A stretch of DNA of 64,000 nt, taken from the NCBI GenBank assembly GCA_000165345.1, contig CM000435.1, positions 1,120,001 to 1,184,000 on the forward strand, in the 5' to 3' direction. The notes below the pieces were generated by a model that saw nothing but the letters and a program-made list of their open reading frames with translations, was not told the DNA's origin and ran no database searches. A program made the translations under genes and the position numbers. Numbering within the stretch: position 1 is the first letter of the stretch; every line of letters starts with the position of its first letter. This document shows positions 1,417 through 63,636 of the stretch, piece by piece.

Positions 1417-1430
1417 TTTTTTTTTTTTTT
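1417..1430. repeat. T14 homopolymer followed by a CT-rich stretch
   Basis: Direct read: ttttttttttttttactcctcccctcctctgcctcttc. Confidence 0.9.
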
Positions 1431-1477
1431 ACTCCTCCCCTCCTCTGCCTCTTCATTTATTTTTTCCATTATTACTA

Positions 1478-1690
1478 TTAGTTATTCACTCTTTGTATCC
1501 AATTATTGTAAAATGGATCAAATATAAATTGATTTGAATCTAAAAATAAGTAATCTGTTATCAATACAAAAACTGCAACACCCAATCCTACTGAAGCTGC
1601 AAAAAAGTATTGGTCATATGAGATAAAAACAGCCAATAAGAGAATTAGTACTAATGACCACTCAAATCCTTGTCTAATTTTTCCTGACAT
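1478..1690 (-). CDS. Possible small two-pass membrane protein (70 aa)
   Basis: The ORF encodes two hydrophobic helices (SLVLILLLAVFISY and AASVGLGVAVFVLITDYLF). Its size and topology resemble small ER membrane subunits, but no diagnostic motif is present and it could be a chance ORF. Confidence 0.3.
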   Translation of the reverse strand: MSGKIRQGFEWSLVLILLLAVFISYDQYFFAASVGLGVAVFVLITDYLFLDSNQFIFDPFYNNWIQRVNN

Positions 1691-1920
1691 TATTTTGTTG
1701 CAAAGTTGTAATATTTATCTTGTATATATTCTTATCTATGTATGCTTGAATAAAGAATTTCTAGCCAAAAACCACTTGAATATTTCTTTTCAATACTGGC
1801 TTTATATTTTTCTTAAAGATAATATATATTATAATAGAAGAAAAAAGTTAAACTATTTATTTGGTATAAATTATTTTATTTTCGTATTTTAATATTTAAA
1901 TTTATATTTGTAAATTAAAT

Positions 1921-1938
1921 ATATATATATATATATAT
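1921..1938. repeat. (AT)9 dinucleotide microsatellite
   Basis: Direct read: atatatatatatatatat. Confidence 0.9.
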
Positions 1939-2017
1939 TGTATATATATTTTTATTGTTTATATATGTATTATATATATAAACAAAAATATAGTTGAATA
2001 TTTATTGATAAAAGTTG

Positions 2018-2030
2018 TGGCGGGAAATCC
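2018..2030 (+). promoter_or_regulatory. E2F-like site GTGGCGGGAAATCC about 450 nt upstream of 5S copy 1
   Basis: GGCGGGAAA matches the E2F/DP consensus TTTSGCGGGAAA. The same GGCGGGAAATCC core recurs at 3408-3422, with related sites at 2757-2766, 2836-2843 and 4639-4647. Confidence 0.4.
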
Positions 2031-2478
2031 GAGCCATTTGTTTTAATAACCAAATTACGTAATTTGTGTAAAAAAAAAAGAAAAATAAGGAAAAAGCAAT
2101 TAAAAATTTGAAAATATTGGAATAAACAATTGAATATTATATGAAAATTTGACTTGAGCTGTATTTTCCTGTATTTATTTTTAAAATTTAAAATTTTCTT
2201 TCAAATGTTATTTAAAAATTTAGTATTTCTAATTAAATTTACTTACATGTAAATACTGAATTCTGGTATTAAATTATATAAATCTATTAATGTATTTTCC
2301 AGTTTATACAATAAATCCATTTAGTTTATACCTAATTAATAAAAACTATGTCATTAATGATATAGTTTGGAGAAACTAAATATTATTTTATTTATTTGTT
2401 TTTTTTTAATGTTAAATATAATTTTAATGAAAAAAAATTATAAAATAGATATGATAATGTAATTTGTAGTTACCATCA

Positions 2479-2598
2479 GCAATCGGCCATACTACATCGA
2501 ATATACCGGATCCCATCAGAACTCCGAAGTCAAGCGGTGTAAGGTTCGGTTAGTACTAGGGTGGGGGACCACCTGGGAAGACCAGAATGTCGATCGCC
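2479..2598 (+). rRNA. 5S ribosomal RNA gene, copy 1 of 3
   Basis: A 120-nt element carries the 5S hallmarks GGCCATAC...GATCCCATCAGAACTCCGAAGTCAAGCGGTGTAAGGTTCGGTTAGTACTAGGGTGGGGGACCACCTGGGAAGACC. The 5' GCAATCGGC pairs with the 3' GTCGATCGC as helix I (8 of 9 pairs), and a T5 Pol III terminator follows. Confidence 0.92.
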
Positions 2599-3149
2599 TC
2601 CTTTTTAAAATTTTGTTAATAACTAATATTTAATCTTAATTAAAAGAACTTATTGTTTGATTGGCAAAATGAATTATTTCAATAAGTTATATTTACAATT
2701 TCATCGTTTTATTTTTGTTTAGTTTTTTAGATTAAATTCCATTTTAAATATATAAAGTGGCGGGCTAAATAAAACCGTTATCCATTTTTATTTACAATTG
2801 ATTCATGAAAAAAATATTTTAATAATTTTAAAAAGGCGGGAAGTTTGCATTGGGAGTATTTTAAACTAGAAACCAATTTTACATGTAAGAATATTTATAT
2901 ATAAGGAAAAAGCGTACTAAAAGCAACTTTTACTTTTAAATAAATAGTAGGCTTAAATAATTGAAAATAACAGCAAATTGATTTAAAAGTTATTTAAACA
3001 TACTTCAATCATTCTCTACTCTTTAGTTTTTTTTTTTAACAACCAATATTAAGTATCTAGGATCCCTAATATTAATATTTTTGATATATTTAATTAATAA
3101 AAAAAAAATGAAAAAATTAATATAGTAATGCAATTTGTAGTTACCACCA

Positions 3150-3269
3150 GCAATCGGCCATACTACATCGAATATACCGGATCCCATCAGAACTCCGAAG
3201 TCAAGCGGTGTAAGGTTCGGTTAGTACTAGGGTGGGGGACCACCTGGGAAGACCAGAATGTCGATCGCC
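3150..3269 (+). rRNA. 5S ribosomal RNA gene, copy 2 of 3
   Basis: Near-identical 120-nt copy in the same orientation, followed by TTTTT. The listed ORF 3128-3340 is an artefact of this RNA gene. Confidence 0.92.
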
Positions 3270-3407
3270 TCCTTTTTAAAATTTTTTTTCTTTTGAATAA
3301 CAATTCTTTTTATTTAACAAAGATGAGATACAATTCTTAATTGATAATAGTAATTTTTATTTAGTAATGATGAATACTTTTTAAATAATTATCTTTTAAT
3401 AAATTAG

Positions 3408-3422
3408 TTGGCGGGGAAATCC
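3408..3422 (+). promoter_or_regulatory. E2F-like site TTGGCGGGGAAATCC in the 5S spacer
   Basis: Direct read. It has the same GGCGGGAAATCC core as the site at 2018. Confidence 0.4.
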
Positions 3423-4060
3423 TTCAATTTCTTCTAATTATACAATAATAATATTTTCCCAAATATAAGAAGGAAAGGGAGGGGGTTGAAAGAAATTTGA
3501 ATTTTAGCAATATTTAAAATTTGCATGCACGTATATTTGCGAGTTATATTTATTATCAAAAAAATATTTTTTTTTTTCGTTATGGAAAGTGCTACCAGAT
3601 TGGTCTTACTCCATGAAACTCTAAAGTAATATAATTTGTTTGTAAGTTTCTCAATTTACAAAACAAAAATATCTATATTTAAAAAAAAGTTATTATTTTT
3701 AACCTAATCATTTTTTTTTAAAACTCGTACTAATCTATATTTTAATTCAAATGTATTACAAAAAGTCAAATGCGCGCCATTTGTGTGCATTAAATATTTA
3801 TTTATTAAAATAAAAGTGATCAAATAACATAATTGTCTGTAAATAGTAAAATTGTTAGTAGATACACAATACAAGCTTAAAATTTTTAATTATTTTAATA
3901 CTATTTTTATCTTTTAATTATTATTTTTATATAGTATTACGTTATTACTAATAGTTACCAATAAATAGTTTGTTTATACAATAGTCAACTGCTTATTTCA
4001 ACAATATAATACAAAAGAATAAAAACATTGATATGATAATGTAATTTGTAGTTGCCATCA

Positions 4061-4180
4061 GCAATCGGCCATACTACATCGAATATACCGGATCCCATCA
4101 GAACTCCGAAGTCAAGCGGTGTAAGGTTCGGTTAGTACTAGGGTGGGGGACCACCTGGGAAGACCAGAATGTCGATCGCC
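4061..4180 (+). rRNA. 5S ribosomal RNA gene, copy 3 of 3
   Basis: Near-identical 120-nt copy followed by CTTTTT. The three copies share a conserved roughly 30-nt 5' flank (ATGATAATGTAATTTGTAGTTRCCAYCAGC) but otherwise have unrelated spacers of 551 and 791 nt. Confidence 0.92.
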
Positions 4181-4713
4181 TCCCTTTTTAATTTCTTATT
4201 TTTTGATACATTAATTTATTCTGGATGATAAAAACCCTCAAATACAATCTTTATTTTTTCTAGAAAGCTTGGAAAGACAAATGTTGGCAAATACCTAACC
4301 TTGTAGATATACTGAATGTTATTCTTATTACTATTTTTTCTATATATTTATCTATTTATTTGATTTCTTTCCCCCACCCCCCTTTCATCCATCTAATTTC
4401 CATTTTTCTATATATTTCTATTCCTAATTTTATTTTTAACCTACTTGTTCATTTCCAACTTTCCTAATTTCTTTTACAAATAAAATAATTATATGTATAA
4501 AATGATAAAACAACAAAATTGTTCTTGTAAAATTTCTTAAAATTAGTCATTTTTTACCCCTCAAAAAAAAAAATACTTTAATGTTTTATTATATTCTGAT
4601 TTAGTAAAATTAAACCATAATTTACATGTGGGGTGCATGGCGGGAAAGTTTAGGAAGTATAATTATATAGATTAATTTAGGGAGCATAAAAATATAAGAA
4701 ATAAAACAAATAC

Positions 4714-4754
4714 AAAATAAATAAATAAATAAATAAATAAATATATATATATAA
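4714..4754. repeat. (AAAT)n followed by (AT)n microsatellite
   Basis: Direct read: aaataaataaataaataaataaatatatatatata. Confidence 0.9.
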
Positions 4755-4879
4755 TAGTGAAAGAGCTGTTGATTACAGCAACCATTGAGAGAGAAAGTTC
4801 TTGTCAAGTAAACTTTAAAATCTTCATGCTTTTATTATTGGTTGTTGAAAAGAAATTGGAAACTTCTCGACTTTAAGTT

Positions 4880-7800
4880 ATGCAGGTAGGATCTTTGGGA
4901 AAAGATGATAGGTCATTATCATTCAAGGAAGTTTATGGAGAGAAGTTAGGATTATTCCTTGAAGCAAAGGAAACTTGTTATAAATCTTGGAACCGATCAG
5001 ATTCTCCAGAAAAATTTTGGAAACTATTACAAGAGGAAAAAGAAAACTATCTAAGCTTATTAGTCTCAACTGGATTAAGATTTTCTGAAGAAGTTCAAAA
5101 TGAAGTAGATTGGAAAAATATGTTGGATTTACTTGAAAAAAGTGAATTATCTTTTGAATATCCATTTTCTCTCCCATTTAAATCAACCTATGAATCTAAT
5201 TTTGACTCCTCAACTTCTAATACTACTCCATTAATATGTAACCAATTCTCACCAAAATGGGGTATTCATGCAGGAAAAAGTGCTAAAACTAAAATTGATC
5301 CAAGAAGAGTTAGTGAAAAGTCTTCAAAGAAAGTCCCTTTTGAAATGGATGAAAGACAATGGAAATTTGCTGGATATGAAGTTGTTCTATTATCTATTGA
5401 CTTTATAAGACGTAATATTGGAGAATTAAAATTACAAATTACTAGATTAGAAGAAAGTAAGATGAAGATCGATCGTTTAGAAGAACAATATAAAGCAACC
5501 ACTGGAGGAAATAGAATTAGTGGATCAGGAATACAAACCAAATCTTCTAATATACCAGAAGAAAAAAATCAACATTATAATTTCTCCAAAATATGTACGG
5601 AACAAGGTATAGCTTATGAAAAATTACAAAGTCTTCATTCTAAACTTACTAGAGATTGTGATAATTTAATCTCCATCTACAAATCATTAATGATGTTTTC
5701 TGAAATGGTTAGAATCAAATTTGCTATTGATTCTTCCACTGAATATATTATTTGTTCATTATTAAGTAAATTTGATTCTGGTGGAATGGGTTTCTTTACT
5801 TCTCAAGATATACATCCTCTTGAAACTAGATATAGAGTACTATTATTATTAGAAAGTTGGTCAAAGTCTGATTTACTTACTTGTAATTATTCTACATGGG
5901 ATCATGGAAAAATGAGAATTAAACCAGGAGGAGCTCCAAGAATTATACCTGAAATTACTCATTCTAAAGTACTTAAAGATGAACCAGAATTCAGATCATG
6001 GATTCATAGACAATTACATATTATATATTCTAATCTAGCATTTAAACTTCAAAGACTTGTATTATTTATACCTCCTGGTTGGCTTCAATATCTTCCAGGA
6101 GAAATTGATCTCAGAGATATGTTAGATCTAAGAAATAAATCTTGGTCATATAGTAGTCGAAATATTGGATTAGGTATTCAAAAAGAGCTTCTATCAGAAG
6201 GAGTTCAAAAAACTCTTGGAAAAAATCCACAATATCTTTTAGAATTTACTCTTGAATCCATTACTATTCTTGATCAACTTAGAAATTTATTTGATCAAGG
6301 ATTCTGGGGTGATTCTAACTTTCTTAAAGCTCCTGAAAATCTTAATAATGGACGTGATCTTCTAAATAGACTTCTTCAACTTATGTCAGCTATGGAAAGA
6401 CTTGATTTGGCTATTAGAAGAGACATTTCAAACAATTCTTTAAAATCGGTACCTTCTACATTTCATATTAATTTATCATCTTATTGTATAGAAATGTCTT
6501 CTAATGATAAGAAATACTCATCATCATTCAATCTTGAACCTCAAAACAAACTTGATGGCCACGTTTATACTTCAAGTAATAGCCAACATATACATTCAAA
6601 CTCTAACTCATCCCATATAGAATCTAAAAAGCAATCAGGACATATCAATAGAAGACAATTAATATATACTAATGAATTTGTTAGAGACTCAATAGAAGAA
6701 AGACTTTTGGTTTTACCTAATTTAAGTTCTTATTGGATGCTTGAATCTCAGATATTACATATATTAATTAGAACTTTAATGTCTGTTAATGTCAATTCTA
6801 TTGATCCAAATTCTGGGATTAAAGGAATTGGATTAACTTCTATGGGTCTTCATCAATACTCTCCTTTTATATCCAGATGTATTGTATTTATTGGATATAT
6901 GTTAGAAAATGGAATCTATGTAGATGAAGATCTTAAATATATGGATAAAGTTACTATTACTAAGACTAATATTATACCAACTAGTTTGGATACCTATTCG
7001 TTATATTTGGCATCTTGTATATGGGTTTGTTATGAGAACTTTCTTTCTATTAAGAATTTAAAATCAGTTTCTGGATTAAATCTTGATTATGATCACGAAT
7101 CTCCAATAGGAATAGAAGGATCAGGATTATCTAAGATTAAAGATAAAGATCAAACAAGTATTCAAGAAGTATTTTTTTCTGTATTAGATCTTATTCTTAA
7201 AGATCTTCCTAGTTTTCTTAAATATCAAACTATTTCCAGCTTAGAACAAGAGCTTGCAAGTTCTACACAATCATTAACAAATGCTTACTTTACTATTTCT
7301 TCCCAACCCATTGATCAAAGATCTATCAATACTGGTACTTCTGAGACACTTGTATCTAAAGATACTACAAAGCAATCATCTGGATCTAATATTAGATCCA
7401 GATTTCACAGTAATAGTAGAGAACTTCTAAGAAAGATTACTAATAATAGCAAGGATGTAAAAGAAGGAGGATTATTAGTTGAGAAGTCGTCTTATATTGA
7501 AAATAAAGAAGATGAATTAGATGAAGACTTTACATATTTAAATAGATTCTATAAGATCAATTCATTTATTATTCAGATCCAAGGAAGAAAGACTAATAAT
7601 ATAAGTTCAAATTTAAGTTCAATAATTTGTCAACCAATTTTAAGACAAAATGATCAACTTTGGAAAAGTCCTGATTGGATGATTTGTCTTAGAGACGGTA
7701 TATCTAAAGGTATCAAGAATAAAAATAATAAAGAAGATACTTTAAATGATCAATTTTGGAGGATTTTTGGTATATCTTTAACAACAAGTTCAAGATCAGA

Positions 7801-47833: not shown

Positions 47834-50800
47834 ATGAAACTTACAATCCCATTTCTACCACGAAATTCCTCTTTTGATTTTTTGCACAAAAACTACAGAA
47901 TCATCGAATATGTGGGAAAAGGACAGTTTGGTAATACATACAAAGTGGAGAACACTATTGATTATAAGATATGGCTAGCAAAATGTATTGATCTTTCACA
48001 GATGGACGAAGATGATAAAAAGAGGAGCCTACAAGAAGCTGAAATAATGAAGAGCATTAACCATCCTTATGTAATAAAGTGTCATGAATCATTTATACAC
48101 GACGATGTTTATTTAGTCATTATTATGGAATACTGTGAGGGGGGAGATATTGGGGCTGTAATTGACTCTTGTATATCAAAAGGTACTTATTTGCCAGAAG
48201 AAAAAATCTTATATTGGTGTGCACAGTTAGCAGCAGGGCTTTACTATTTACATAATGAATGCAGAATTATTCACAGAGACATAAAACCCTCCAATATTTT
48301 CATCAGGGAAAATGGAGACCTTGTAATTGGTGATTTTGGCATAAGCAGGATTATGCTCAGTGTAACAATGCCTTTTACTTTGACCTCAATAGGTACTCCT
48401 CAGTATATGTCACCAGAAATGTGTGAGAATAAGCCATATACATATAAGAGCGATATATGGTCATTTGGATGCGTTTTATATGAATTAACATGTCTTAAGC
48501 CACCATTTTCTGGAGATTCACTGTTATCTCTGGCTTGGAAGATCTCATTTCAAGAAATAGAGCCATTACCAAGCTGTTATTCATCAAACTTATTTAAATT
48601 AATACAAAGCTTATTATCTAGGGATCCAATTCTCCGTCCAGATCCATTGGAGATTTTGAATAACGAGTCTTTTTTAGAATTTAATCATTTATCAAAATTT
48701 TTACCAAATAAAATAGGAAATGACTTGAAAGAAGGGACAGTTGAGAAAGTAGAAGGAACTTTTAATGCTCTTTTCCAAGATAATTTGAACCAAAATAACA
48801 AGAATCAGCTTGAAATAAATTCTACAAATGACTGCAATGCTAGTCAGTTGAATACAAGGCCAAGTTCAGGTTTTAGTGCTGGAAATAATGACTCATTTAG
48901 CTTTTCTAAAGAGAGTTATTCTTTATATGAAGGAGAAGATAAGCAAAAGCGTAGTGAAGTCAATTTAATTGGTCAAAATAATATTCATAATAATTTAATC
49001 GATGGATATGAATGCTCTAAAAATTCAATTTTGCATTCAACCTCTGTCAACATTGTTACTAATTGCTCTCCAAATGAGAATTATATCCCCGAAAAAGAAA
49101 ATATTAGGGAATGTTGTGGAATCTTGACCAACTATGAGCATCAATACTTTAGTGTATTAGTCGGAAGAATACAACATCATATCTTAAGATATACAGAAAA
49201 AATGAACTTTTTATTCTGCTCAGAACAAGATGATATACTAACTGTGTTTAAAAAATGTTTCAAATCTTGTCAAAGTGACTTATACTCTTTAGACGGCTAT
49301 TTGACGCAGGAATGGTTCTCTGAGTTTGTTAATGAGCTTAACGTGGGGCTATCCGAAAATGAAGCTTCATTCTTCCTTTCATATATTGGTTATTTTATTT
49401 ACTCTGAAAACAAAGATCCCTTCTCAGAATGTAAAAAAAATGAGTCCAAGAAAAACAAAAGCAGTTATAAAATAAGACATACAAAATCTTCCGGTAGTCT
49501 GCTTTCACTGGATGTATCTAAAACTATGAGGAACATTGATTCAAAAAGTAAAGATGTTTTCCTTGGAACTGTTGAATTTAGTGAAGATACAAAACATCCA
49601 ATTCAAAACAAAGAAAACATTAAACCTAAGATTCCAAAAATATACGAATTTATTGAGAAAATTTATTCTTGGAATAAAATAAAATTAAATAAGTTTCAAG
49701 AACAAGGCGTTTTAGAGTCTACTGAAACTACAAATCTGAGATTTGAAAAGGGACCTAGCCCCTTTCCAATAAGTCCAATAATAAATTACAATAATTATAA
49801 GCAGAATATACATTCTATTAAACCTTGCTTCTATCTTTTTATTACAGACTGGATTCAGACTATATTAACTCCAATTTTAGCCATCAATAATATTACATAT
49901 AACTCAAATCAGTCTGTAAGTAGGGGAAAGAAAATTACATTAAGGCAAGGATTTCATCTTTTTGATCAGAGGACTCAGGGAACTTTATCTAGACAACATT
50001 TCAGGACTGTTTTATACTTGATTTTGCCAAAGCTAACTTCAGTACAGCTTGATTGGCTTTACGCTCTCGCACCAAAAGATTTATTTGGAAATGTCAAGTA
50101 TGAACAGTTTCTAGATTTCATTGATAATATTCAAAATTCTGGTAAAACCGTAACTGCTAATGAAAATATGAACAGAGAACATGCTTTGAATGTACCCAGG
50201 AGAAGAGATAAATCTGAGGACCTAACCAAGAAATTTAGCTTTTTTGAGAATATAGAGATTCAAATAGATAAGGAAGAGAATGATGAAAATTTGGAGAATA
50301 AAGGACAAGATCATGCTTATATAAAGGAAAAAAACACCAATAATATTCTTAATAAAATTCAATTTCAAGGAGAAAAGTTTCAAACTAACTCTGAAACTAA
50401 ATTGAAAAATAAGATAAAAAACTATATAGATGAATCAGAAAATGAGAGATTACAACATTTTGGAGAGACTGAAATAACTAATAATGGATATAATAACATT
50501 CCTATTATGCAACAAGAACTATATAGCTTTGGAATACAGGATGTCGTATTGCTTCATTACAATAGTCAAGCTTGTATGAGAAGGCCTTCTCCTTCTCCTC
50601 AACTATTATCAAGAGCAAGGAATGCTTCATTTATAAGGAGTTCCAGAAGAGGCTGTGAGCCTGAGGTAGATGGAGATAATAAAGAGAATGATTCAAAGCT
50701 TAATTTGGCAGCTAGTGAAATAGAAGTTAAACAAAAGTTTGAGAAACTCCAAAAGCAGAGCTCGGTTTCAACAGATAGTACAGGCGAACAATATCTAAAG

Positions 50801-52021
50801 ATAAGTCATATCAAGAATCAAGAGGTTAATGAAAAACAAGATTTAAATGTAAATAATGATAAAATCAGCACTTATAACTTGTGCTTAAACATTTCAAAGA
50901 GTCTGGTTGGAAGTTTAATCAAAGAACTGGAATGCTTAATTCAAAAATTACAGGTTGAAAGAATATACACGTGCTGGATTACAGCAAAAGCTTCGGAAAG
51001 TCAAAAAGAGTTGTTTGGCGAGGTATTTGAAAAACTAACAAATATTAGGCTAGATACTAGTTTGGCTTTGGATTTATTGATTTCAAATCTGGACATGATG
51101 AAAAATCCTAATCAATTCGAGTCTATTATCGAACTCGATGGTATATTAGCGATATTAAAAGAGGAGCTTCCATTACAAAGGGATGCAGTTGATTGTATAT
51201 TAAGAGTGATAGATCATATGGAACTTTCATCTGAACAAGAATCCAAGACAATTGTCGAAAGTCAACTTATCAATTCAGATGCCTCAAAGGTTTATAAGCA
51301 AATTATGAAACAAGCAATTACAAACAACATCGTATTGCCAATTTCGACTAAAAGCAAGTACAAATCTAGCAGAAGTCATGAAGGAGAAGTAGCTTCTACT
51401 CCAGTAAGATCTATAAATAGCATTAAGGAAACAGATTTTTGTAAATCCCAGCTTGATTCTAACTCAAAAGTTTTTGATTGGACTGGAAAGTTTCTAGCAT
51501 CCTTCGAATTTTTTGGAGAAGCCACAGTAAATCTAATCCAATGTGGGATAAATATATTGGAAAGCATGAGAAACTTTAGACAAGATTTTCAACTACAGGA
51601 AACAAGTCTTAAAGACTTCTCAAAACTGAACCTTCTCATAGAAAACTACAGACAATGGTCGCACTTAAAAGAGCACGTGTCTAGAGAGTGTGCCTTTGTT
51701 GCATCAATTGGAGCTAATCATGACCTAAAGAATGATATTGAGACTGCAAGAATCTTCCTAGAATTACTTGGGGCGAGAAGATTCCAAGTAAACGTTACTT
51801 GGCAGCAACAAAGTAGCACAGAAAAACAGCTATTCAGAAAATTGTTTCTTCTCGAAGAGTCTCTTTGGAATAGCCAAAGCTATCTTTCTTTAGGAGAAGA
51901 TATGCTCTCATCTAAAAAAGAGAGTGACTCTGAACTTTGGCTAATTTGTGGCGAACAAACTTGTGGAGCACTACACAGTACTTGCAACAAATTTATTAGC
52001 GAAATTCAATCACTGCTATAA
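47834..52021 (+). CDS. NIMA-related (NEK family) serine/threonine protein kinase with a roughly 1100-aa C-terminal extension
   Basis: The N-terminal kinase domain has YRIIEYVGKGQFGNTYKV, the ATP-binding Lys in WLAKCID, HRDIKPSNIFI, DFGISR and GTPQYMSPE...SDIWSFGCVLYEL. This matches the NEK subfamily. The remainder is low-complexity and coiled-coil-like. Confidence 0.9.
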   Translation: MKLTIPFLPRNSSFDFLHKNYRIIEYVGKGQFGNTYKVENTIDYKIWLAKCIDLSQMDEDDKKRSLQEAEIMKSINHPYVIKCHESFIHDDVYLVIIMEYCEGGDIGAVIDSCISKGTYLPEEKILYWCAQLAAGLYYLHNECRIIHRDIKPSNIFIRENGDLVIGDFGISRIMLSVTMPFTLTSIGTPQYMSPEMCENKPYTYKSDIWSFGCVLYELTCLKPPFSGDSLLSLAWKISFQEIEPLPSCYSSNLFKLIQSLLSRDPILRPDPLEILNNESFLEFNHLSKFLPNKIGNDLKEGTVEKVEGTFNALFQDNLNQNNKNQLEINSTNDCNASQLNTRPSSGFSAGNNDSFSFSKESYSLYEGEDKQKRSEVNLIGQNNIHNNLIDGYECSKNSILHSTSVNIVTNCSPNENYIPEKENIRECCGILTNYEHQYFSVLVGRIQHHILRYTEKMNFLFCSEQDDILTVFKKCFKSCQSDLYSLDGYLTQEWFSEFVNELNVGLSENEASFFLSYIGYFIYSENKDPFSECKKNESKKNKSSYKIRHTKSSGSLLSLDVSKTMRNIDSKSKDVFLGTVEFSEDTKHPIQNKENIKPKIPKIYEFIEKIYSWNKIKLNKFQEQGVLESTETTNLRFEKGPSPFPISPIINYNNYKQNIHSIKPCFYLFITDWIQTILTPILAINNITYNSNQSVSRGKKITLRQGFHLFDQRTQGTLSRQHFRTVLYLILPKLTSVQLDWLYALAPKDLFGNVKYEQFLDFIDNIQNSGKTVTANENMNREHALNVPRRRDKSEDLTKKFSFFENIEIQIDKEENDENLENKGQDHAYIKEKNTNNILNKIQFQGEKFQTNSETKLKNKIKNYIDESENERLQHFGETEITNNGYNNIPIMQQELYSFGIQDVVLLHYNSQACMRRPSPSPQLLSRARNASFIRSSRRGCEPEVDGDNKENDSKLNLAASEIEVKQKFEKLQKQSSVSTDSTGEQYLKISHIKNQEVNEKQDLNVNNDKISTYNLCLNISKSLVGSLIKELECLIQKLQVERIYTCWITAKASESQKELFGEVFEKLTNIRLDTSLALDLLISNLDMMKNPNQFESIIELDGILAILKEELPLQRDAVDCILRVIDHMELSSEQESKTIVESQLINSDASKVYKQIMKQAITNNIVLPISTKSKYKSSRSHEGEVASTPVRSINSIKETDFCKSQLDSNSKVFDWTGKFLASFEFFGEATVNLIQCGINILESMRNFRQDFQLQETSLKDFSKLNLLIENYRQWSHLKEHVSRECAFVASIGANHDLKNDIETARIFLELLGARRFQVNVTWQQQSSTEKQLFRKLFLLEESLWNSQSYLSLGEDMLSSKKESDSELWLICGEQTCGALHSTCNKFISEIQSLL

Positions 52022-52100
52022 TCATTAGCAAAAATAAAATTCTATTTTGCTTTTTTAATCCAAGTTAGAATATTTACCTTGAAGAAAAAAATACACGTTA

Positions 52101-52110
52101 GGCGCCAAAG
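52101..52110. promoter_or_regulatory. GGCGCCAAAG E2F-like box plus nearby ATACCGGTAT palindrome (52131-52142), about 300 nt upstream of RPS20
   Basis: Direct read: acacgttaggcgccaaagcttttaaaaaaataccggtatttttt. Confidence 0.4.
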
Positions 52111-52418
52111 CTTTTAAAAAAATACCGGTATTTTTTCTTAAATATTTATTAATAAAAAGGTATCGGTGAGACGGGATCATAATAATAATATTAATAAATA
52201 AATTAATAAATAATAAATAAAAATAAACTGGTAATTAAAAATTAATAAATTTCTATTATTAAAGGCCTGCCGCTGAAGAAATTCAAAGATTAATTATAAG
52301 TCTTGTTTTGGGATTAATACTACCAAAGAGTTTATTTTATAAATAGACGATATTTATATATACTCAAAGACAGGATTCGTTATTAGTAAGATAAAACAGA
52401 GAAAGGAGTCAGTCAAAA

Positions 52419-52802
52419 ATGTCAGCAGCTGTAATGAAGCCAACAGACAAACAATTTGGTCAGTTTAATGGAGAGCAACAACAGGCACCATTACACAAGA
52501 TCAGAATTACTCTCTCAAGTAAGAATTTGAAATCAATTGAGCGTGTATGTGCTGATTTGATCCAAAGTGCTAAACAAAAGGACTTAAAAGTAACTGGTCC
52601 AGTTAGAATGCCAGTTAAGACCTTGAGAATCACTACCAGAAAATCCCCATGTGGTGAGGGATCTAAGACCTGGGATAGATATGAAATGCGTATCTACAAG
52701 AGAGTTATCGACTTGTATTCATCAAGTGATGTTGTAAAGCAAATCACTTCAATTAACATTGATGCAGGAGTTGAGGTTGAGGTAACTATTTCTGACATTT
52801 AA
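52419..52802 (+). CDS. RPS20: 40S ribosomal protein S20 (uS10)
   Basis: The 127-aa protein has [99 protein letters not shown], nearly colinear with eukaryotic RPS20. Confidence 0.95.
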
Positions 52803-53537
52803 GTGAGTTTAGCCTGGAAAAGAAGGTACTATTGACTTGGAGTATAATGATTAATTTTGTAATGGTATCTCTCCTTAATTTATTAAACCAAATATCCTGA
52901 TAAGAATTTTGGTTTGTCTTTTTTTGTATCTTTTACATCAGAAGAGTAATGATATATAAATACCTTAATTTATTGGTAATATATGTTTCCCCTTCTTTTC
53001 AACAGTAACCTTACTAGAGGAAAGGAGGGTATTACTTAACTATTCTGAGCTGAAAGTCAATAAAGTTTCCAATTGAGAGATAGCTTCTTTTATTCCTAGA
53101 ATTTGGTTCTTTTACTATTATTATATTTTAGAGCTATGGATCTGAGTACTATACATTCTTGGGTTAATATATTCCGGTTATATATTTATGTATTAACTAT
53201 ACATAAGTTTAAGCAATACCAAGATGGTAGCCTTTTACGTGTTCGGATCCCAGATCTATGTATATATATATATGTAGAGAGTTAATTTCGAGTCTACACT
53301 TGCTATAATATTAGAATGATTACGATAGAGAAATACATTTCTAAGAGGTAATAATCATTAGTAAACAATATATTTGTTCTTTTTTTGATGTTTTCCTTGT
53401 TTTGTTTGTTTCTTATGTCTTTTTTTTTTTTTCTCTTTGTTAGGTATCGGATATTTCACCTTGAGTCTTGAGGCGTTTTGGAGGGAAAATCTTAAAATTC
53501 TCTTTTAATTTGTTGGGATGAAAATTCATTTTCTAGT

Positions 53538-53669
53538 ATGGAAAACTCAAACCCAATAATCTACTTTAAACCAGTAGATGAAAATAGCATAGAGGAGGTT
53601 GATGCCAATTCCCTTTTTTATTGCGAAAATAGAGAATTAAATAATACAATAAATCAAGTAACAAAAAAT
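53538..53669 (+). CDS. MIP18/FAM96 (DUF59, CIA2-like Fe-S assembly) family protein, exon 1 of 2
   Basis: An ATG at 53538 opens 44 codons (MENSNPIIYFKPVDENSIEEVDANSLFYCENRELNNTINQVTKN) ending just before a GTAAGT donor at 53670. The ORF track missed this gene because it is split. Confidence 0.75.
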
Positions 53670-53763
53670 GTAAGTACCTAGCATATAATATAGAATACGG
53701 TTCTTATTCTTAACAATTTCTATTAAACAATCATTTTTTTTTCTTTCTCATACCAATTTTTAG
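53670..53763 (+). other. Spliceosomal intron (94 nt, GTAAGT...TTTTTAG), phase 0
   Basis: The canonical GT-AG boundaries are an AT-rich 94-nt intron with a polypyrimidine tract (tttttttttctttctcataccaatttttag). Splicing joins exon 1 in frame to DVYECIKDIIDPEYPLTLEQLNVV. Confidence 0.75.
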
Positions 53764-54150
53764 GACGTTTACGAATGCATTAAAGATATTATTGACCCAG
53801 AATACCCTTTAACTCTTGAACAACTAAACGTTGTTTCCCTTGAAAACATTATAATCAACCATGAAGAACAAATCATATTCGTTTTCTTCAAGCCCACAGT
53901 AACTAGCTGCTCCCAAGCAAGCCTTATTGGACTATCGCTATACTATAAACTACACACCGTTTTTAATAAAAACTTTAAAATCATTATCAAAGTAGTTAAG
54001 GGTACACACGATCTTGAAGATTCGATCAATAAACAACTCAAAGACAAAGAGAGGGTACACGCTGCACTAGAAAATCCTCAAATATATAAAACTATCACAA
54101 AAGGACTCGCAAACTCCGATGTTTGGGAAGACCAATCTTTATTATACTAA
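53764..54150 (+). CDS. MIP18/FAM96 (DUF59, CIA2-like) family protein, exon 2 of 2 (128 codons plus stop; total protein 172 aa)
   Basis: DVYECIKDIIDPEYPLTLEQLNVVSLENIIINHEEQIIFVFFKPTVTSCSQASLIGLSLYYKLHTVFNKNFKIIIKVVKGTHDLEDSINKQLKDKERVHAALENPQIYKTITKGL aligns block-for-block with MIP18/FAM96B (DPEHPLTLEELNVV...FTPT.PHCS.ATLIGL...I.PGTH.SE.AVNKQL.DKERVAAALEN). Exon 2 has no Met, so no ORF was listed. Confidence 0.8.
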   Translation, partial: DVYECIKDIIDPEYPLTLEQLNVVSLENIIINHEEQIIFVFFKPTVTSCSQASLIGLSLYYKLHTVFNKNFKIIIKVVKGTHDLEDSINKQLKDKERVHAALENPQIYKTITKGLANSDVWEDQSLLY

Positions 54151-54175
54151 TTTAATCATTTTTTTTCTCCACATA

Positions 54176-54226
54176 AAATTCCCGCCTAGAATCGGCTTTC
54201 TTTCAAGGTATAATTCCCGCCTAAAC
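54176..54226. promoter_or_regulatory. Two direct copies of AATTCCCGCCTA (reverse-strand E2F-like GGCGGGAATT) 33 nt apart
   Basis: Direct read: aaattcccgcctagaatcggctttctttcaaggtataattcccgcctaaac. They lie in the short convergent region between the MIP18 gene 3' end and the 54438-56459 gene 3' end. Confidence 0.35.
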
Positions 54227-54437
54227 ATGCAAAATTAGAAAAATTATAAGAAAATCTAGGTAAAGCGAGGATGAGTAAGGAATTATTTATTTATTTTTTT
54301 AAAAGTTAGTTTCTCAATAAGAGTATACTATTTTAATAAGTTGTCCATTTCCTACAACATTGATTGGAGGAAGACCTTCTTTGCTTTATTAGGTTTGAGT
54401 TGATATTTTAATCAAATGATAAAGCGCGCCAGTGGGG

Positions 54438-56459
54438 CTAGTCAGACTTGGACTTTTCATTGCCGAAGCTTGGATAATTAAAGTTTCTAAGAGAGAGTTT
54501 TAATAAAACAAAAAAGATACATATTGCTGGGGTGAAGATGTACATAAACTGGAAGATGTTGAGTGTATGCCAGTAGCAAAGGATAATGAAAAGAGAAATT
54601 GCCAAAGAAATGAAGGTTGCTACTTTAATGAAAGGGACGTTATTTATGAAAGTGAAGAATCCTTGGTCAATCTTGGACAACTTATTCCAAATAGGAATAA
54701 TTTTGAATAGTGATAGTAAAATTAGGATAGAGAAGCCATAAGGGAGAAGAGGTCCAGGTAGTTTTCTTGGTTCTTTAAATTTATATGAGATTTCTTCTTT
54801 TGGATAGAAATCGGCAATCTTGGGGTGGATCTTGTATGGACAAAGTTTACTAAGAGCTGATGTATCATTACGTTCATCATTAATCATAATTGAAAGTATC
54901 TCTTGATTGGAATTTGAGGAATTGGATGATTCATTTTTCAATGGATTTCCAATAATAATTCTTATGGAAAATTCTAGAGAAGAGCAAATAAAGTCATTAT
55001 TTGTAAGATCTAAATAGAGTTTTAGATTATTCTTCTCAATAATTGCTGGAATAAGTTTGATTGTTCGGGTACCAATAGTTTTATAAGGAGTCAAAGCTTT
55101 AATTTCAAAAGCAGTAAAATATTGATATACTGTTTCAAAGTTTAATATCTCCAAGCTTGTTTGTAGTTCCAGAGAAAATTGGAAACTATCTAATGTCTTC
55201 ATATAGTGAGTATTAATATCCTTAACTTGAGATTTTCCCAATGTTAACTTCTCACCAAAGTAAATAGTGGCTTTTGTGATCTCAAAATTGGAGCTTTTCT
55301 TATTAAGAATTGGAATATTGGCTTCTCTAGCAAGGACTGATCTACTAGAGATTTTTAGCTTTGGAATAGATTTAGACAAATCATTCTTCACTTTCTCAAG
55401 ATTAAATGGTTCGGTTTGATTTGCAATATTATAAAAAAGTTGATACTCGCAAGTATTTGGTATACCTACAAGTTTAAAAGTATTAGTATTTGATAAATCC
55501 AAAGATAAATTTTCAATTGGTGATCCATCTAATCTACAAAATATAACTGTAGCTAAATTCTCATCAATATTTTTGGGATTAGTATTTTGGAAACCTTGTA
55601 TCAAATAAATACCAGAATCAATAAACAGTCTTCTAGTGACAATATATTCATTCAAAACTGTTAAACTTTTTATATCTCTAAGTTTAATTCTTGAAATACT
55701 ATAGGCCATTTGCTGTAAGGAAAGTGGGATATCTTCAAAATCAACGGGTCTTCTTAAGAAGAAGTACGCTTTAGATAAAAGTGAGAAGTTGAGGACAAAG
55801 GTATCTAAGTCTACAATAGGATAAAACTTGAGATTCTTATTTTGCAATTCCAAGATTGTATTCATCATTTTAAGATGTTGTACATTTCTAGATCCTAATC
55901 GAATTAACTGAGAAATTGATCCAAATAAAAATGAGATTTCTTCATAATCTAATATTTGATTACTTGAAATTTGTTTCTTGATAATACTTAACTTATCATT
56001 AATAATCTCATTTGAGTCTTCTATTATATCGTCTCTTCCTAAAACTGAACTAATTTCCTGTGGTAAATTGGATAGTATAGTTGTTAAGTAATATAGCTCT
56101 TTTAAGGTTGGCTTAGTTGATTTCATAAAATATTGTCTTAAGATTTCAGAACTAGTAATTGCTAATTTGAGATCACATTGAACTAGTATCGAACCAAATA
56201 TTGAGCAATTTAAATCATTTAATGGAGTATCTATCCTTTGAATCTTATTTCTGAAAATGTTACAAAGTGAGTTAGTTTCTGATTTTGGGACATAATTTGT
56301 TGCTAGTAATTTTAATAATAATGCATCACATGTACCTATTTCTTGCGTGATATCACTCGGTACCTCTGGTAAAATATTAACGAATTGGGTTTGTACCTTA
56401 TTTATTAAGGCAAAAACAAATAATATTAAAGAAACAAGTATTTTTCCCATATTTCTCAC
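54438..56459 (-). CDS. Secreted/membrane hypothetical protein (673 aa): N-terminal signal peptide, large lumenal/extracellular domain, three C-terminal transmembrane helices
   Basis: The signal peptide is MRNMGKILVSLILFVFALINKVQTQ. C-terminal hydrophobic segments are LLPYGFSILILLSLFKIIPIW, FIKVATFISLAISLFIILCYW and FMYIFTPAICIFFVLLKLSL. I recognise no catalytic motif. The topology resembles ER type-I complex subunits such as ribophorin II, which is speculative. Confidence 0.8.
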   Translation of the reverse strand: MRNMGKILVSLILFVFALINKVQTQFVNILPEVPSDITQEIGTCDALLLKLLATNYVPKSETNSLCNIFRNKIQRIDTPLNDLNCSIFGSILVQCDLKLAITSSEILRQYFMKSTKPTLKELYYLTTILSNLPQEISSVLGRDDIIEDSNEIINDKLSIIKKQISSNQILDYEEISFLFGSISQLIRLGSRNVQHLKMMNTILELQNKNLKFYPIVDLDTFVLNFSLLSKAYFFLRRPVDFEDIPLSLQQMAYSISRIKLRDIKSLTVLNEYIVTRRLFIDSGIYLIQGFQNTNPKNIDENLATVIFCRLDGSPIENLSLDLSNTNTFKLVGIPNTCEYQLFYNIANQTEPFNLEKVKNDLSKSIPKLKISSRSVLAREANIPILNKKSSNFEITKATIYFGEKLTLGKSQVKDINTHYMKTLDSFQFSLELQTSLEILNFETVYQYFTAFEIKALTPYKTIGTRTIKLIPAIIEKNNLKLYLDLTNNDFICSSLEFSIRIIIGNPLKNESSNSSNSNQEILSIMINDERNDTSALSKLCPYKIHPKIADFYPKEEISYKFKEPRKLPGPLLPYGFSILILLSLFKIIPIWNKLSKIDQGFFTFINNVPFIKVATFISLAISLFIILCYWHTLNIFQFMYIFTPAICIFFVLLKLSLRNFNYPSFGNEKSKSD

Positions 56460-57176
56460 AATTTTCTATATTACCTTATATTAATTATGCAAGCCAGTAA
56501 ATTATAAGTAACTGAATTTAAATGATCTTGTATTATATTATCTTTGAGAATTCCAAGCAATTAGCTTCCAAACTCCACAATTATAACTTCCTACTTAAAT
56601 AATACCTAGTATTGAAAGTAAAAACTTGGTTTATAAAGACAAAAAATTTATTTATTTATTGTGAATGCTTTCAAGTTAATTCTAAGAATTATTATTGAAT
56701 ATTTTGGCAGCTTAAATAAGAATTTTTTCCCGCCTCAGTAACTTTTTAAAAATTTTCAGTAATTATCATTTTTTGATTATAGAACAGAGAATTTGGGGAG
56801 ACGAGTGGGATTATGAAGGAAAAAGGAGAGCTTTAGAGATTTGGAAATAAAGTGATAAGTTAAGGGGTAGAAATATTGTAAGAAAATGAGAGGAAGAGAG
56901 AGATAAAAAAATACTAGTTTAAGTAAAACCTCAATTCTGCCAGTAACTTTTGCTCTTCAATTAGTTTCAAAAGTTGCATATACAGAAGAATATCAACTAA
57001 ATTTTGTAATTTTTATATTTTTAGATTGTTCAAGTAATTTAATACATAATTTTTAGAATTTCTCATTATTTATAAATTCTAACAAATCGTAACAAAATTA
57101 GAAACCTCTCCCCCCCCTCCCTGATTTGTGCATGCATAATTTGTTGACAATTATTAATTCTTATCCACTTAAAATA

Positions 57177-61455: not shown

Positions 61456-62499
61456 TAAACTTGAGTAAGAACAACTAAATAAAATTTAAATGATAATAAA
61501 GGTAAAATTGAGAATAAAAAAAAACGGATAAAAAAAAATGAGCGAAATTAGAGTAGTCTGAATTGAGTTCGTTAATACATGATCCAACGTCTCGAGAATT
61601 GGACTTAATTAGATACAAAAATGATCCGAAAATACATTTTCGTTCCACGTGCCGGCCAACCATTTTCAAGTTGAAATAAAAAATTTCAACGAATTTCTGT
61701 TAGGTGGCGTTAGTTATCTCAACTAATACTTCTAAGAATACATTCAAAAGAATGTAGAGGCATCTCAGACCTTCCCATCCATTTATGAAAAATGTAGTTA
61801 AGTAATATTTCATATAAATAAAATATTAGCAAAACCCACTTTATTGTCTATGGAGAATCTCGAGCTTGATCTCGCCCATAGCCACTTTTTTTAAATAAAA
61901 AAAAACTCAAGTTACGAATAGTATAATATATAGTTAAATTCCATGTAAATTTAAATTTAGAAATATCAATCAAAAGCTTTATCTCGATTTTGTTACTATA
62001 TATATATATAAGCAAAAGCCGTTTGTCTGTCCCTTTTGAAGAATAAAAAGATCTATTTAAAGTTAAACATCTTCTCAAAAAGTGTTTTAAATTAGTTGAT
62101 ATAGTACTCTTTTTCTCTATCAATTGAAATAAATATAGCTCCATTGGAATATATTGAATTCCTCTAAATTAAATGTAGGTATATAATATTATTATACCAA
62201 GTATGTAGAACCCTGTGATTGACATAAACTCTACGGTAATAAAAGAGCAATGGCACCCGAGATTCGTTACTTTTCGATGAAGTTTGATCCAATAAAATAG
62301 TAAAAATATCCCAAATATTGGTCTTCGGTATCATCGGTATATCTTGAAGATATAGAGTAAACCATTGTATATATCTAAATAATAGAGGAATTTACGTTAT
62401 ATTATAAGTATCAATTAAACAGTATGATCCAATTTTCTTCTTTTATATGAATATTAAGTTATCTTGATTAATAATATTTCATCATCTGATATCCAATAC

Positions 62500-62523: not shown

Positions 62524-63636
62524 GATATTAATGTTTATACAAGTGGATTAAAAAAAAACTTTAAATATCCAAAATGAAAGAATCCAATTTAATAGCAAAT
62601 GCAAATACACGTTATATATGATTAGTATTAATCCAAGTATAAAGAAAATCGTCAGGTTTGCAGACATAGAGTTTCTCCACATAGATAGATTCAGTGGATT
62701 GACAGATTATTTTGCACGCTTAACTACTTAAAAAGTAGAAGATCATCATTCATTTCCAATATACCATCAATAAATATACAAATCCATATAACGTGGAATA
62801 AATGCTATAAAATGGAGTAATTAACATAGAAATAATGCTCAGTACCGCTTTGAAAATAGTAACTCTTAAGAGACCAATTTCCAAAACGATAAAAAACTCT
62901 TTTTCTACACTAAGTTTCAGTGGAAGGAGAAGAATAGAGTTGGTTAATCTTCATTGCAATATTCCAATTATACCAGATGAATAACTATGTATTTACGTAT
63001 ATTTTTAAAGTTCTTTTCCATTTAATTGCGACAAATAATATAACGTATTTAAATATATCCATTTATAAAAGGCTTAAAATATTCCCATATTTCAATACTT
63101 AATAGAGAAAAGAAGAATACCAATAACTAAAAATATCCGACTTACCTCGTATTCATAAGATATCTTTCAAACTATATGTAACAATTATTGATGGGATGAA
63201 TAAAGTAATATGTCTTATAGTTTAACAGATTTTAAGGTCTCAATTCTTTCCATGACCTCCCTTGTAATAGATGAATTCTTTTTTCTTCTTCTGCAAATAA
63301 TAGAAAGAAAACCGTTTAAAAGTCGTTCCCTCAGAGTTAAAAAGCTCGATATTATTTAATATTCTCGTCATAATAATCTGAATTGGATTTCAAAATCATC
63401 ATTGGGATAAATATTAAAGATTTAACTTTTTCTTTATATACGAATTCTTATTCACTTAGTCTATATATAAGGAGTTTCCATTTTGTATCCCATTGTAGAT
63501 TACTGAAATAAAATCCACTAATACAAAACTGAGATACAAAATGTAAAAACTGAAAATCTTTGTCCGTTTTTTCCTCAAATTCCTCAAATCTCTTAATTGA
63601 TTATTTCATTTATTTGATTATTATTTACTATTTCTC

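What the first reader, a model, noticed from the sequence alone, without database searches (positions are those of the whole stretch)
53538..54150. Spliced MIP18/FAM96 (CIA2-like Fe-S assembly) gene invisible to the ORF track
Between RPS20 and the 54438 gene the ORF track shows nothing. Reading through it reveals a two-exon gene. Exon 1 runs 53538-53669 and ends exactly at a GTAAGT donor. A 94-nt AT-rich intron ends in TTTTTAG. Exon 2 runs 53764-54150 and has no Met, hence no listed ORF. The translation has the MIP18/DUF59 hallmarks DPEYPLTLEQLNVV, FKPTVTSCSQASLIGL, KGTHDLEDSINKQLKDKERVHAALEN. It is the only intron I could find in 64 kb, consistent with an intron-poor genome. It is a cytosolic iron-sulfur assembly (CIA targeting complex) component, relevant in a parasite with a reduced mitosome.
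Basis: partly seen in the sequence, partly recalled or inferred. Interest (0 to 1): 0.6.

Follow-up and report, generated by a model that had tools for sequence, protein, structure and literature searches.

The report
Spliced CIA2 iron-sulfur gene, already annotated

Summary
Exon 1 (53538-53669) and exon 2 (53764-54150) are joined across a 94-nt, 23% G+C GTAAGT...TTTTTAG intron in phase 0, giving a 172-aa protein. Exon 2 has no in-frame ATG, GTG or TTG and is preceded by a TAG, so it needs an upstream exon. The protein is identical over its whole length to four deposited C. parvum proteins, including QOY40833.1 (CPATCC_0011010) and CPHLJ_7g5070. A 2015 reannotation already compared cgd7_5070 at 0.983 identity, which equals 169/172. 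The 2004 annotation held only exon 2 ("small conserved protein, partial").

The intron sits at the same codon position in C. ubiquitum, C. canis, C. ryanae and C. muris. Its length varies (96, 75, 54, 61 nt) and its GT and AG ends are invariant.

The protein matches solved CIAO2B (E 5e-28) and FAM96A (E 5e-25). Its AlphaFold model superposes on CIAO2B of the CIA targeting complex. The reactive cysteine (C93) and the family motifs are invariant. Pfam PF01883 is only sub-threshold (15.5 bits against a cut-off of 23.5).

Verdict: a correct call of a known gene, the CIA2 orthologue of C. parvum. It is already known and of low interest. No junction reads could be examined here.

The parts
53538..53669 (+). 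Exon 1: ATG plus 43 codons. It encodes the N-terminal tail MENSNPIIYF... with the ENxNP motif shared with CIA2 homologues.
   Evidence: N3 and P6 are at least 90% conserved across 17 homologues. Exon 1 is 80% identical to C. ubiquitum, against 62% for the intron.
53670..53763 (+). Spliceosomal intron: 94 nt, phase 0, GTAAGT donor, T-rich tract, TTTTTAG acceptor, 23% G+C, three in-frame stops.
   Evidence: The position is the same in five species, with lengths 94/95, 96, 75, 54 and 61 nt. GT and AG are invariant. A T9/T10 length polymorphism between C. parvum assemblies leaves the protein unchanged.
53764..54150 (+). Exon 2: 128 codons plus TAA. It holds the whole MIP18/DUF59 domain and a C-terminal tail specific to Cryptosporidium and gregarines.
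   Evidence: There is no in-frame start codon. It equals XP_628650.1, 'small conserved protein, partial'. Against C. ubiquitum, 52 of 60 substitutions fall at third codon positions.
53908..53910 (+). Codon for Cys93, the conserved reactive cysteine of the PTxxxCS motif (here PTVTSCS).
   Evidence: C93 is invariant in the 17-sequence alignment. The importance of this cysteine was shown for T. gondii CIA2 C524 in PMC12674569. The coordinates were read.
52419..52802 (+). Upstream neighbour: ribosomal protein S20 (S10 family), 127 aa, with its own stop codon. It is not part of the gene, although one C. hominis annotation fuses it to exon 2.
   Evidence: PF00338; P0023, the 249-aa chimera. The same kinase / RPS20 / MIP18 / 670-aa gene order is found in five species.
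54438..56459 (-). Downstream convergent neighbour: a membrane protein of about 670 aa resembling ribophorin II. It is not part of the gene.
   Evidence: Its orthologues carry a weak PF25147 Ribophorin_II_C hit.

Best explanation
This is the Cryptosporidium parvum chromosome-7 gene cgd7_5070 (CPATCC_0011010). It is a two-exon, protein-coding gene for the single CIA2 (CIAO2B / FAM96B / MIP18 / yeast Cia2 / plant AE7) orthologue of this parasite.

The pre-mRNA is spliced by the ordinary U2-type spliceosome. The 94-nt GT-AG intron at 53670-53763 is removed, and codon 44 is joined to codon 45.

The 172-aa product has three parts:
- a disordered N-terminal tail with an ENxNP motif;
- a compact DUF59/MIP18 alpha-beta domain (residues about 41-160);
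- a short C-terminal tail specific to the lineage.

By homology, it most likely binds the WD40 protein CIA1 (and MMS19, if the parasite has one) to form the CIA targeting complex. That complex would receive [4Fe-4S] clusters from Nar1, with Cys93 taking part in cluster binding or transfer. It would then hand the clusters to cytosolic and nuclear client proteins such as ABCE1/Rli1 and DNA-metabolism enzymes.

Shown here: the gene structure, conservation of the intron position, purifying selection, family membership by sequence and by predicted fold, and the conserved cysteine. Inferred: actual splicing in vivo (taken from a published annotation statement), complex formation, and Fe-S transfer.
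For: Gene model:
- The 172-aa product is identical to QOY40833.1, WKS79200.1, WRK33690.1 and KAL5367828.1.
- The annotated span is 613-614 nt in two C. parvum assemblies.
- Window 50538-57150 is identical to CP141124.1.

Intron:
- Phase-0 introns at the same codon position in C. ubiquitum, C. ryanae and C. muris reproduce their deposited proteins.
- The donor G-T-A-x-G-T and the acceptor A-G are invariant in all six aligned sequences, including C. canis.
- Length is not constrained to multiples of 3, and C. parvum assemblies differ by a 1-nt T-run indel.
- Intron size and G+C (94 nt, 23%) match the genome averages of 99 nt and 22% given in Table 1 of PMC4637869.

Selection:
- Exons are more conserved than the intron and the flanks.
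- Against C. ubiquitum, 52 of 60 exon-2 substitutions are at third codon positions.
- dN/dS between C. parvum and C. hominis is 0.105, and the identity of 0.983 equals 169/172.

Family:
- PDB phmmer gives E 5e-28 for galla-2/CIAO2B and E 5e-25 for FAM96A, and the CIAO2B alignments run across the exon junction.
- The AlphaFold model has pLDDT of about 78-91 (mostly 84-91) over residues 41-160.
- The top Foldseek hits are CIAO2B in 6tc0, 6tbn, 6tbl and 9uky (rmsd 1.4 A over 118 columns for 9uky). FAM96A and then bacterial DUF59 (3lno) follow.
- D55, P56, E57, T61-L65, P88, T89, C93, N133-Q135, D138-R141 and E147-N148 are invariant.
Against: - A scan for the exon-exon junction 30-mer in JGI metagenome contigs found nothing, which is uninformative.
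- Pfam PF01883 scores below its gathering cut-off (15.5 against 23.5 bits).
- The His that usually precedes the reactive Cys (PHCS) is Ser here (PTVTSCS).
- Other annotators have drawn this locus differently: a 168-aa model in C. tyzzeri, a 249-aa RPS20 fusion in C. hominis, and a 197-aa read-through in C. canis.
- No biochemical work on the Cryptosporidium protein was found.
Confidence: 0.93

Rival explanations
1. The gene is the same, but the donor lies 12 nt upstream (GTAACA at 53658). The intron is then 106 nt and the protein 168 aa, lacking VTKN. C. tyzzeri TRY50509.1 is annotated this way.
For: This donor is formally in frame and gives an open 168-aa product. One deposited C. tyzzeri model uses the equivalent join.
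Against: - GTAACA is a poorer donor than the GTAAGT 12 nt downstream.
- The GT at that place is absent in C. ubiquitum, C. canis, C. ryanae and C. muris, whereas the GTA(A/T)GT donor is invariant.
- The four codons it would remove align with conserved (I/V/L)T-x-x residues in every orthologue.
- Four C. parvum depositions and those of C. hominis, C. meleagridis and C. ubiquitum use the 172-aa join.
Confidence: 0.04
2. Exon 2 is the 3' exon of the upstream RPS20 gene. A 982-nt intron from 52782 to 53763 gives the 249-aa 'ribosomal protein S10' of C. hominis OLQ18173.1.
For: This join is open in frame and has been deposited.
Against: - RPS20 has its own stop codon, and a complete 127-aa S10-family product is annotated as a separate gene in five species.
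- The join needs an intron about ten times the genome mean and uses a weak GTAACT donor.
- It discards exon 1, which is conserved, under purifying selection, and carries the family's N-terminal ENxNP motif.
- It ignores the conserved GTAAGT donor at 53670.
Confidence: 0.01
3. There is no intron. The region is a decaying pseudogene or a chance open frame, or only the 128-aa exon-2 fragment is made, as in the 2004 annotation XP_628650.1.
For: Exon 2 alone was the original deposited model. A stop-free run of this length is expected about 0.3 times per window by chance.
Against: - There is no possible start codon in exon 2.
- Homology to CIAO2B is E 5e-28.
- The third-position substitution bias and a dN/dS of 0.105 show purifying selection.
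- Read without splicing, the frame hits TAG three codons into the intron, with two more in-frame stops.
- CIA2 is a core CIA component and was shown to be essential in Toxoplasma (PMC12674569).
Confidence: 0.01

Closest known systems
CIAO2B / FAM96B / MIP18 (Drosophila galla-2, yeast Cia2, plant AE7, T. gondii CIA2): subunit of the CIA targeting complex
   Same: - About 38-44% identity over the whole DUF59/MIP18 domain.
- Same predicted fold.
- Invariant reactive Cys, DPE(H/Y)PLTLEQL, PT...CS and NKQLxDKERVxAAxEN motifs.
- N-terminal ENxNP motif.
- Small single-domain size (172 aa, against about 155-165 aa).
   Different: - Ser replaces the His that precedes the reactive Cys in most homologues.
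- There is a Cryptosporidium/gregarine-type C-terminal tail ending in an aromatic residue (...NSDVWEDQSLLY).
- It is far shorter than T. gondii CIA2, whose reactive Cys is residue 524.
- Its function has not been tested in Cryptosporidium.
CIAO2A / FAM96A (the metazoan paralogue, specialised for IRP1 maturation)
   Same: Same domain and fold (E 5e-25; Foldseek E 1.6e-10).
   Different: - It matches slightly less well than CIAO2B.
- The FAM96A alignments begin at query residues 43-44, so exon 1 is not matched.
- From general knowledge, the A/B duplication is a metazoan event, so the Cryptosporidium gene is best called plain CIA2.
Bacterial DUF59 / SufT-type proteins (Pfam PF01883 FeS_assembly_P; PDB 3lno, 5ird)
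   Same: The core alpha-beta fold and the position of the conserved Cys-containing loop (E 2e-3 and weaker).
   Different: - Only 17-20% identity.
- The Pfam model scores below its cut-off.
- The bacterial proteins lack the eukaryotic C-terminal helices with the NKQLxDKERV motif and lack the N-terminal tail.
Typical Cryptosporidium spliceosomal introns
   Same: GT-AG ends, 94 nt and 23% G+C, against a genome mean of 99 nt and 22% G+C. About 10.8% of genes carry introns (PMC4637869).
   Different: Nothing unusual was seen.

Membership tests
MIP18 / CIA2 (CIAO2A/B) family | Significant full-domain sequence similarity to characterised family members | tested here: met
   phmmer against PDB gives galla-2/CIAO2B at E 5.1e-28 (query 29-159) and FAM96A at E 4.6e-25. 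Deposited orthologues are named 'MIP18 family-like domain-containing protein'.
MIP18 / CIA2 (CIAO2A/B) family | DUF59-type alpha-beta fold with C-terminal helices | tested here: met
   The AlphaFold2 model has pLDDT of about 78-91 (mostly 84-91) for residues 41-160. The top Foldseek hits are CIAO2B in 6tc0, 6tbn, 6tbl and 9uky (TM 0.76-0.85 normalised by target; rmsd 1.4 A over 118 columns for 9uky), followed by FAM96A.
MIP18 / CIA2 (CIAO2A/B) family | Conserved reactive cysteine in the PT-x-x-x-C-S loop | tested here: met
   P88, T89 and C93 are invariant and S94 is at least 90% conserved in 17 homologues. The functional relevance of this Cys is described in PMC12674569. The preceding His is Ser here.
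MIP18 / CIA2 (CIAO2A/B) family | DPE(H/Y)P-LTLEQL and NKQL-x-DKERV-x-AA-x-EN motifs | tested here: met
   D55, P56, E57, T61-L65, N133-Q135, D138-R141, A144, A145, E147 and N148 are invariant.
MIP18 / CIA2 (CIAO2A/B) family | Forms the CIA targeting complex with CIA1 (and MMS19) and transfers [4Fe-4S] clusters to clients | not testable with these tools
   A C. parvum CIA1 sequence exists and is discussed in PMC12674569. No interaction or activity data for the Cryptosporidium protein were found.
Pfam PF01883 FeS_assembly_P (DUF59) | Score at or above Pfam's gathering threshold (23.5 bits) | tested here: not met
   The score is 15.5 bits, E 0.021, over residues 44-103. The C. muris and C. serpentis orthologues do carry precomputed PF01883 hits. 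The C. parvum sequence is therefore a divergent member by transitivity and by fold, but it does not pass the curated cut-off itself.
U2-type (GT-AG) spliceosomal intron | Consensus 5' GT and 3' AG with a pyrimidine-rich 3' region, at a frame-preserving position | tested here: met
   GTAAGT...TTTTTTTTTCTTTCTCATACCAATTTTTAG, in phase 0.
U2-type (GT-AG) spliceosomal intron | Position conserved in orthologues while the sequence and length drift freely | tested here: met
   The position is the same in five species. Lengths are 94/95, 96, 75, 54 and 61 nt. In-frame stops are present in four of the five. Intron identity is 47-62%, against 62-84% for the exons.
U2-type (GT-AG) spliceosomal intron | Spliced junction observed in RNA | not testable with these tools
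   The evidence is only indirect. The identical model belongs to the CPATCC annotation, whose introns are stated to be 100% supported by RNA-seq (PMC8744675). The junction 30-mer is absent from JGI metagenome contigs.

The most novel reading that the evidence does not exclude
The most novel reading left open concerns the conserved apicomplexan-type C-terminal tail. It reads ...NSD(I/V)W(E/D)DQSLLY in intestinal Cryptosporidium...TVIY in C. muris and ...AVMF in Gregarina, and always ends in an aromatic residue. It might act in cis as a mimic of the C-terminal client-recognition peptide that the CIAO1-CIAO2B pocket binds (compare PDB 9uky). That would make CIA2 autoinhibited or self-docking in a parasite whose CIA pathway is otherwise reduced. 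A second minor possibility is regulated intron retention. The C. canis intron is in frame and free of stops, so read-through would give an insertion isoform. Nothing here tests either idea. The tail is predicted to be disordered (pLDDT below 50).
Probability: 0.04. Interest if true: 0.4.

Novelty: already known. Interest (0 to 1): 0.08.

Why it matters
The finding matters little beyond quality control. It shows that the first-stage reader can recover a spliced eukaryotic gene from raw sequence with exact boundaries. It also shows that a prokaryote-style ORF track misses such genes.

Biologically, the gene is the expected single CIA2 subunit of the cytosolic Fe-S assembly pathway. That pathway is a core eukaryotic function retained even in parasites with mitosomes, and the gene is already in CryptoDB and NCBI annotations.

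The practical by-product is a short list of probably wrong deposited models at this locus in other species:
- C. parvum Iowa II XP_628650.1, which is exon 2 only;
- C. hominis OLQ18173.1, the RPS20 fusion;
- C. tyzzeri TRY50509.1, which uses the alternative donor;
- C. canis OJ253_803, which retains the intron.

Tried and rejected
- **Exon 1 alone against PDB.** The 44-aa peptide at E up to 10 gave only chance hits. Support for exon 1 comes instead from the family alignment (ENxNP motif) and from cross-species conservation.
- **Pfam scan.** PF01883 was sub-threshold and exon 1 matched nothing. I did not take this as refutation, because PDB homologues and the fold match strongly.
- **Alternative gene models.** I enumerated every ATG...GT/AG...stop model within 1.3 kb upstream. 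Many are formally open. Only the 53669|53764 join uses a consensus donor that is conserved across species.
- **Direct transcript evidence.** The exact 172-aa product occurs only on four annotated NCBI chromosomes, with no cDNA-like contig. The junction 30-mer is absent from JGI metagenome contigs.
- **Literature.** 'cgd7_5070' occurs in no searchable main text. It appears only in a supplementary table of Isaza et al. 2015. No supplements were held for Baptista et al. 2022. The C. parvum mitosome Fe-S paper does not name CIA2.
- **Chance ORF or pseudogene.** Rejected on homology and purifying selection.
- **Searches not run.** I did not use the large representative-protein search or further homology searches, because the answer was already unambiguous.

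Full report
**1. What is in the sequence**

The window is 30.4% G+C. The stretch 50538-57150 is base-for-base identical to Cryptosporidium parvum chromosome record CP141124.1 (assembly GCA_035232765.1).

The gene structure at the reported coordinates is as follows.
- An ATG at 53538 opens a 44-codon frame.
- That frame is followed directly by GTAAGT at 53670.
- A 94-nt stretch of 23.4% G+C ends in a T-rich tract and TTTTTAG at 53763.
- From 53764 a different frame is open for 128 codons, up to TAA at 54148-54150.
- Exon lengths are 132 and 387 nt, so the intron is in phase 0.

Exon 2 has no in-frame ATG, GTG or TTG, and the codon before it is TAG. This is why the mechanical ORF list shows only the 47-aa ORF 53538-53681, which is exon 1 running into the intron.

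A stop-free run of this length is expected about 0.3 times per window by composition alone. The open frame on its own would not be convincing.

**2. The same model is already deposited**

The 172-aa translation is found, by exact look-up, as QOY40833.1 (CPATCC_0011010), WKS79200.1, WRK33690.1 and KAL5367828.1 (CPHLJ_7g5070). All four are from C. parvum. The annotated gene spans 613-614 nt in two assemblies.

Orthologues of 171-177 aa are deposited for C. hominis, C. meleagridis, chipmunk genotype I, C. ubiquitum, C. ryanae, C. xiaoi, C. muris and C. serpentis. Several are named 'MIP18 family-like domain-containing protein'.

The original 2004 Iowa II annotation (XP_628650.1, 'small conserved protein, partial', 128 aa) is exactly exon 2.

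The supplementary table of Isaza et al. 2015 (PMC4637869) lists cgd7_5070 against CHUDEA7_5070 at identity 0.983 and dN/dS 0.105. The two 172-aa proteins differ at 3 residues, and 169/172 = 0.983. Exon 2 alone would give 127/128 = 0.992. The two-exon model was therefore already in use in 2015.

Baptista et al. [quoted passage not shown]

**3. Independent evidence for the intron**

I fetched the orthologous loci of C. ubiquitum, C. canis, C. ryanae and C. muris. The gene order kinase / RPS20 / MIP18 / convergent 650-670-aa membrane protein is conserved in all of them.

- In C. ubiquitum, C. ryanae and C. muris, a single phase-0 intron at the same codon position is the only way to reproduce the deposited protein. 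Its length is 96, 54 or 61 nt, with GTAAGT or GTATGT at the 5' end and AG at the 3' end.
- In the DNA alignment, the donor G-T-A-x-G-T and the acceptor A-G are invariant in all six sequences.
- C. canis is deposited as a 197-aa read-through product. It has GTAAGT and CAG at the homologous places, bounding a 75-nt in-frame, stop-free segment that does not align with any orthologue. This is most likely an unrecognised intron.
- Two C. parvum assemblies differ by one T in the intron's T-run (T9 against T10) yet encode the identical protein.
- Intron identity to C. parvum is 47-62%, similar to the flanks (50-65%). Exon 1 is 62-80% identical and exon 2 is 62-84% identical.
- Against C. ubiquitum, 52 of 60 exon-2 substitutions fall at third codon positions. 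Exon 1 is less constrained (9, 6 and 12 substitutions at positions 1, 2 and 3).
- The intron's size and composition match the genome averages of 99 nt and 22% G+C.

**4. Alternative models**

I enumerated every ATG...GT/AG join that gives an open product ending at 54150. Three of them correspond to deposited models.

- *Upstream donor, 168 aa.* The GTAACA donor 12 nt upstream is used in C. tyzzeri TRY50509.1. Its GT is not conserved in the four other species aligned, C. ubiquitum, C. canis, C. ryanae and C. muris, and it would delete residues that are conserved in the orthologues.
- *RPS20 fusion, 249 aa.* C. hominis OLQ18173.1 is drawn this way. It needs a 982-nt intron and a weak donor. It ignores RPS20's own stop codon and discards the conserved exon 1.
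- *Exon 2 only.* This model has no start codon.

I rate these at 0.04, 0.01 and 0.01.

**5. What the protein is**

- phmmer against PDB sequences gives Drosophila galla-2 (CIAO2B) at E 5e-28 and human FAM96A (CIAO2A) at E 5e-25. The CIAO2B alignments run across the exon junction (query 29-159).
- A 17-sequence alignment shows that the DPE(Y/H)PLTLEQL block, P88, T89, C93, NKQ, DKER, AA and EN are invariant. N3 and P6 of the N-terminal ENxNP motif, encoded by exon 1, are at least 90% conserved.
- An AlphaFold2 model built on that alignment is confident for residues 41-160 (block means about 78-91). It is disordered for residues 9-37 and 161-172.
- The best Foldseek matches in the PDB are CIAO2B chains of the MMS19-CIAO1-CIAO2B complexes 6tc0, 6tbl and 6tbn, and of 9uky (rmsd 1.4 A over 118 columns). 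FAM96A follows, and then bacterial DUF59 (3lno).
The C. parvum sequence therefore does not pass that model on its own, although the C. muris and C. serpentis orthologues have recorded hits.

**6. Mechanism**

By homology, the protein is the CIA2 subunit of the CIA targeting complex. The roles of that complex are as summarised in PMC12674569 and PMC6857552. With CIA1 and MMS19, it receives [4Fe-4S] clusters from Nar1 and passes them to cytosolic and nuclear clients.

The reactive cysteine is essential in T. gondii (C524A) and corresponds to C93 here. A C. parvum CIA1 exists. Complex formation and cluster transfer in Cryptosporidium are inferred and were not tested.

**7. Differences worth recording**

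- Ser replaces the usual His before the reactive Cys.
- A conserved C-terminal tail (...NSDVWEDQSLLY) is shared, in type, with gregarines.

Neither feature is evidence of a new function.

**8. Verdict**

The claim that this is the only intron in the window agrees with the deposited annotation. All other complete protein genes across the window are single-exon.

Interest is low. The by-products are a set of probably incorrect deposited models in other species and a few non-coding RNA genes noticed elsewhere in the window.

Noticed in passing
window 2479-2598, 3150-3269, 4061-4180 (+): Three tandem 5S rRNA genes (Rfam RF00001, 102.5 bits each) fill the ORF-free gap 1132-4880. The window and assembly GCA_035232765.1 differ by a few small indels somewhere in the first 17 kb.
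   Followed up: partly
window 61547-61806 (-): A nuclear RNase P RNA gene (RF00009, 58 bits, full-length model match). It lies in a 2.6-kb stretch with no annotated protein gene.
   Followed up: no
window 63326-63407 (-): A C/D-box snoRNA matching SNORD36 (RF00049, 43 bits against a gathering score of 30).
   Followed up: no
window 54179-54186 and 54214-54221 (+); also 2019, 2835, 4639, 31967 (-) and 56727 (+): The octamer TTCCCGCC (reverse complement GGCGGGAA, E2F-like) occurs 7 times, against 0.13 expected. Two copies lie 35 nt apart within AATTCCCGCCTA repeats. They sit in the 3' intergenic region between the convergent MIP18 gene and the 54438-56459 gene, which is an odd place for a promoter element. 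They might drive an antisense or non-coding transcript.
   Followed up: partly
L004 2133-2207 (C. canis, GCA_027243985.1): The deposited C. canis protein OJ253_803 (197 aa) reads through a 75-nt, 55% G+C segment bounded by GTAAGT and CAG, at the conserved intron position. The 25 extra residues align with no orthologue. It is probably an unspliced mis-annotation.
   Followed up: partly
window 52419-52781 joined to 53764-54150: C. hominis OLQ18173.1/PPA65932.1, 'ribosomal protein S10' (249 aa), is a chimera of RPS20 and MIP18 exon 2. C. tyzzeri TRY50509.1 (168 aa) uses a non-conserved donor 12 nt upstream.
   Followed up: yes
window 53735-53743 (intron T-run): There is a length polymorphism between C. 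parvum assemblies: T9 in the window and in GCA_035232765.1, T10 in GCA_048859185.1.
   Followed up: yes
window 54100-54147 (protein residues about 157-172): The C-terminal tail ...NSD(I/V)W(E/D)DQSLLY is conserved within Cryptosporidium. An aromatic C-terminus is also present in C. muris (TVIY) and Gregarina (AVMF) but absent from the other homologues. It is predicted to be disordered. Its function is unknown.
   Followed up: no
window 54438-56459 (-): The mechanical ORF starts at a GTG (673 aa), whereas the deposited product is 670 aa. Its orthologues carry a weak Ribophorin_II_C (PF25147) hit, so this is probably the OST subunit ribophorin II/Swp1.
   Followed up: no
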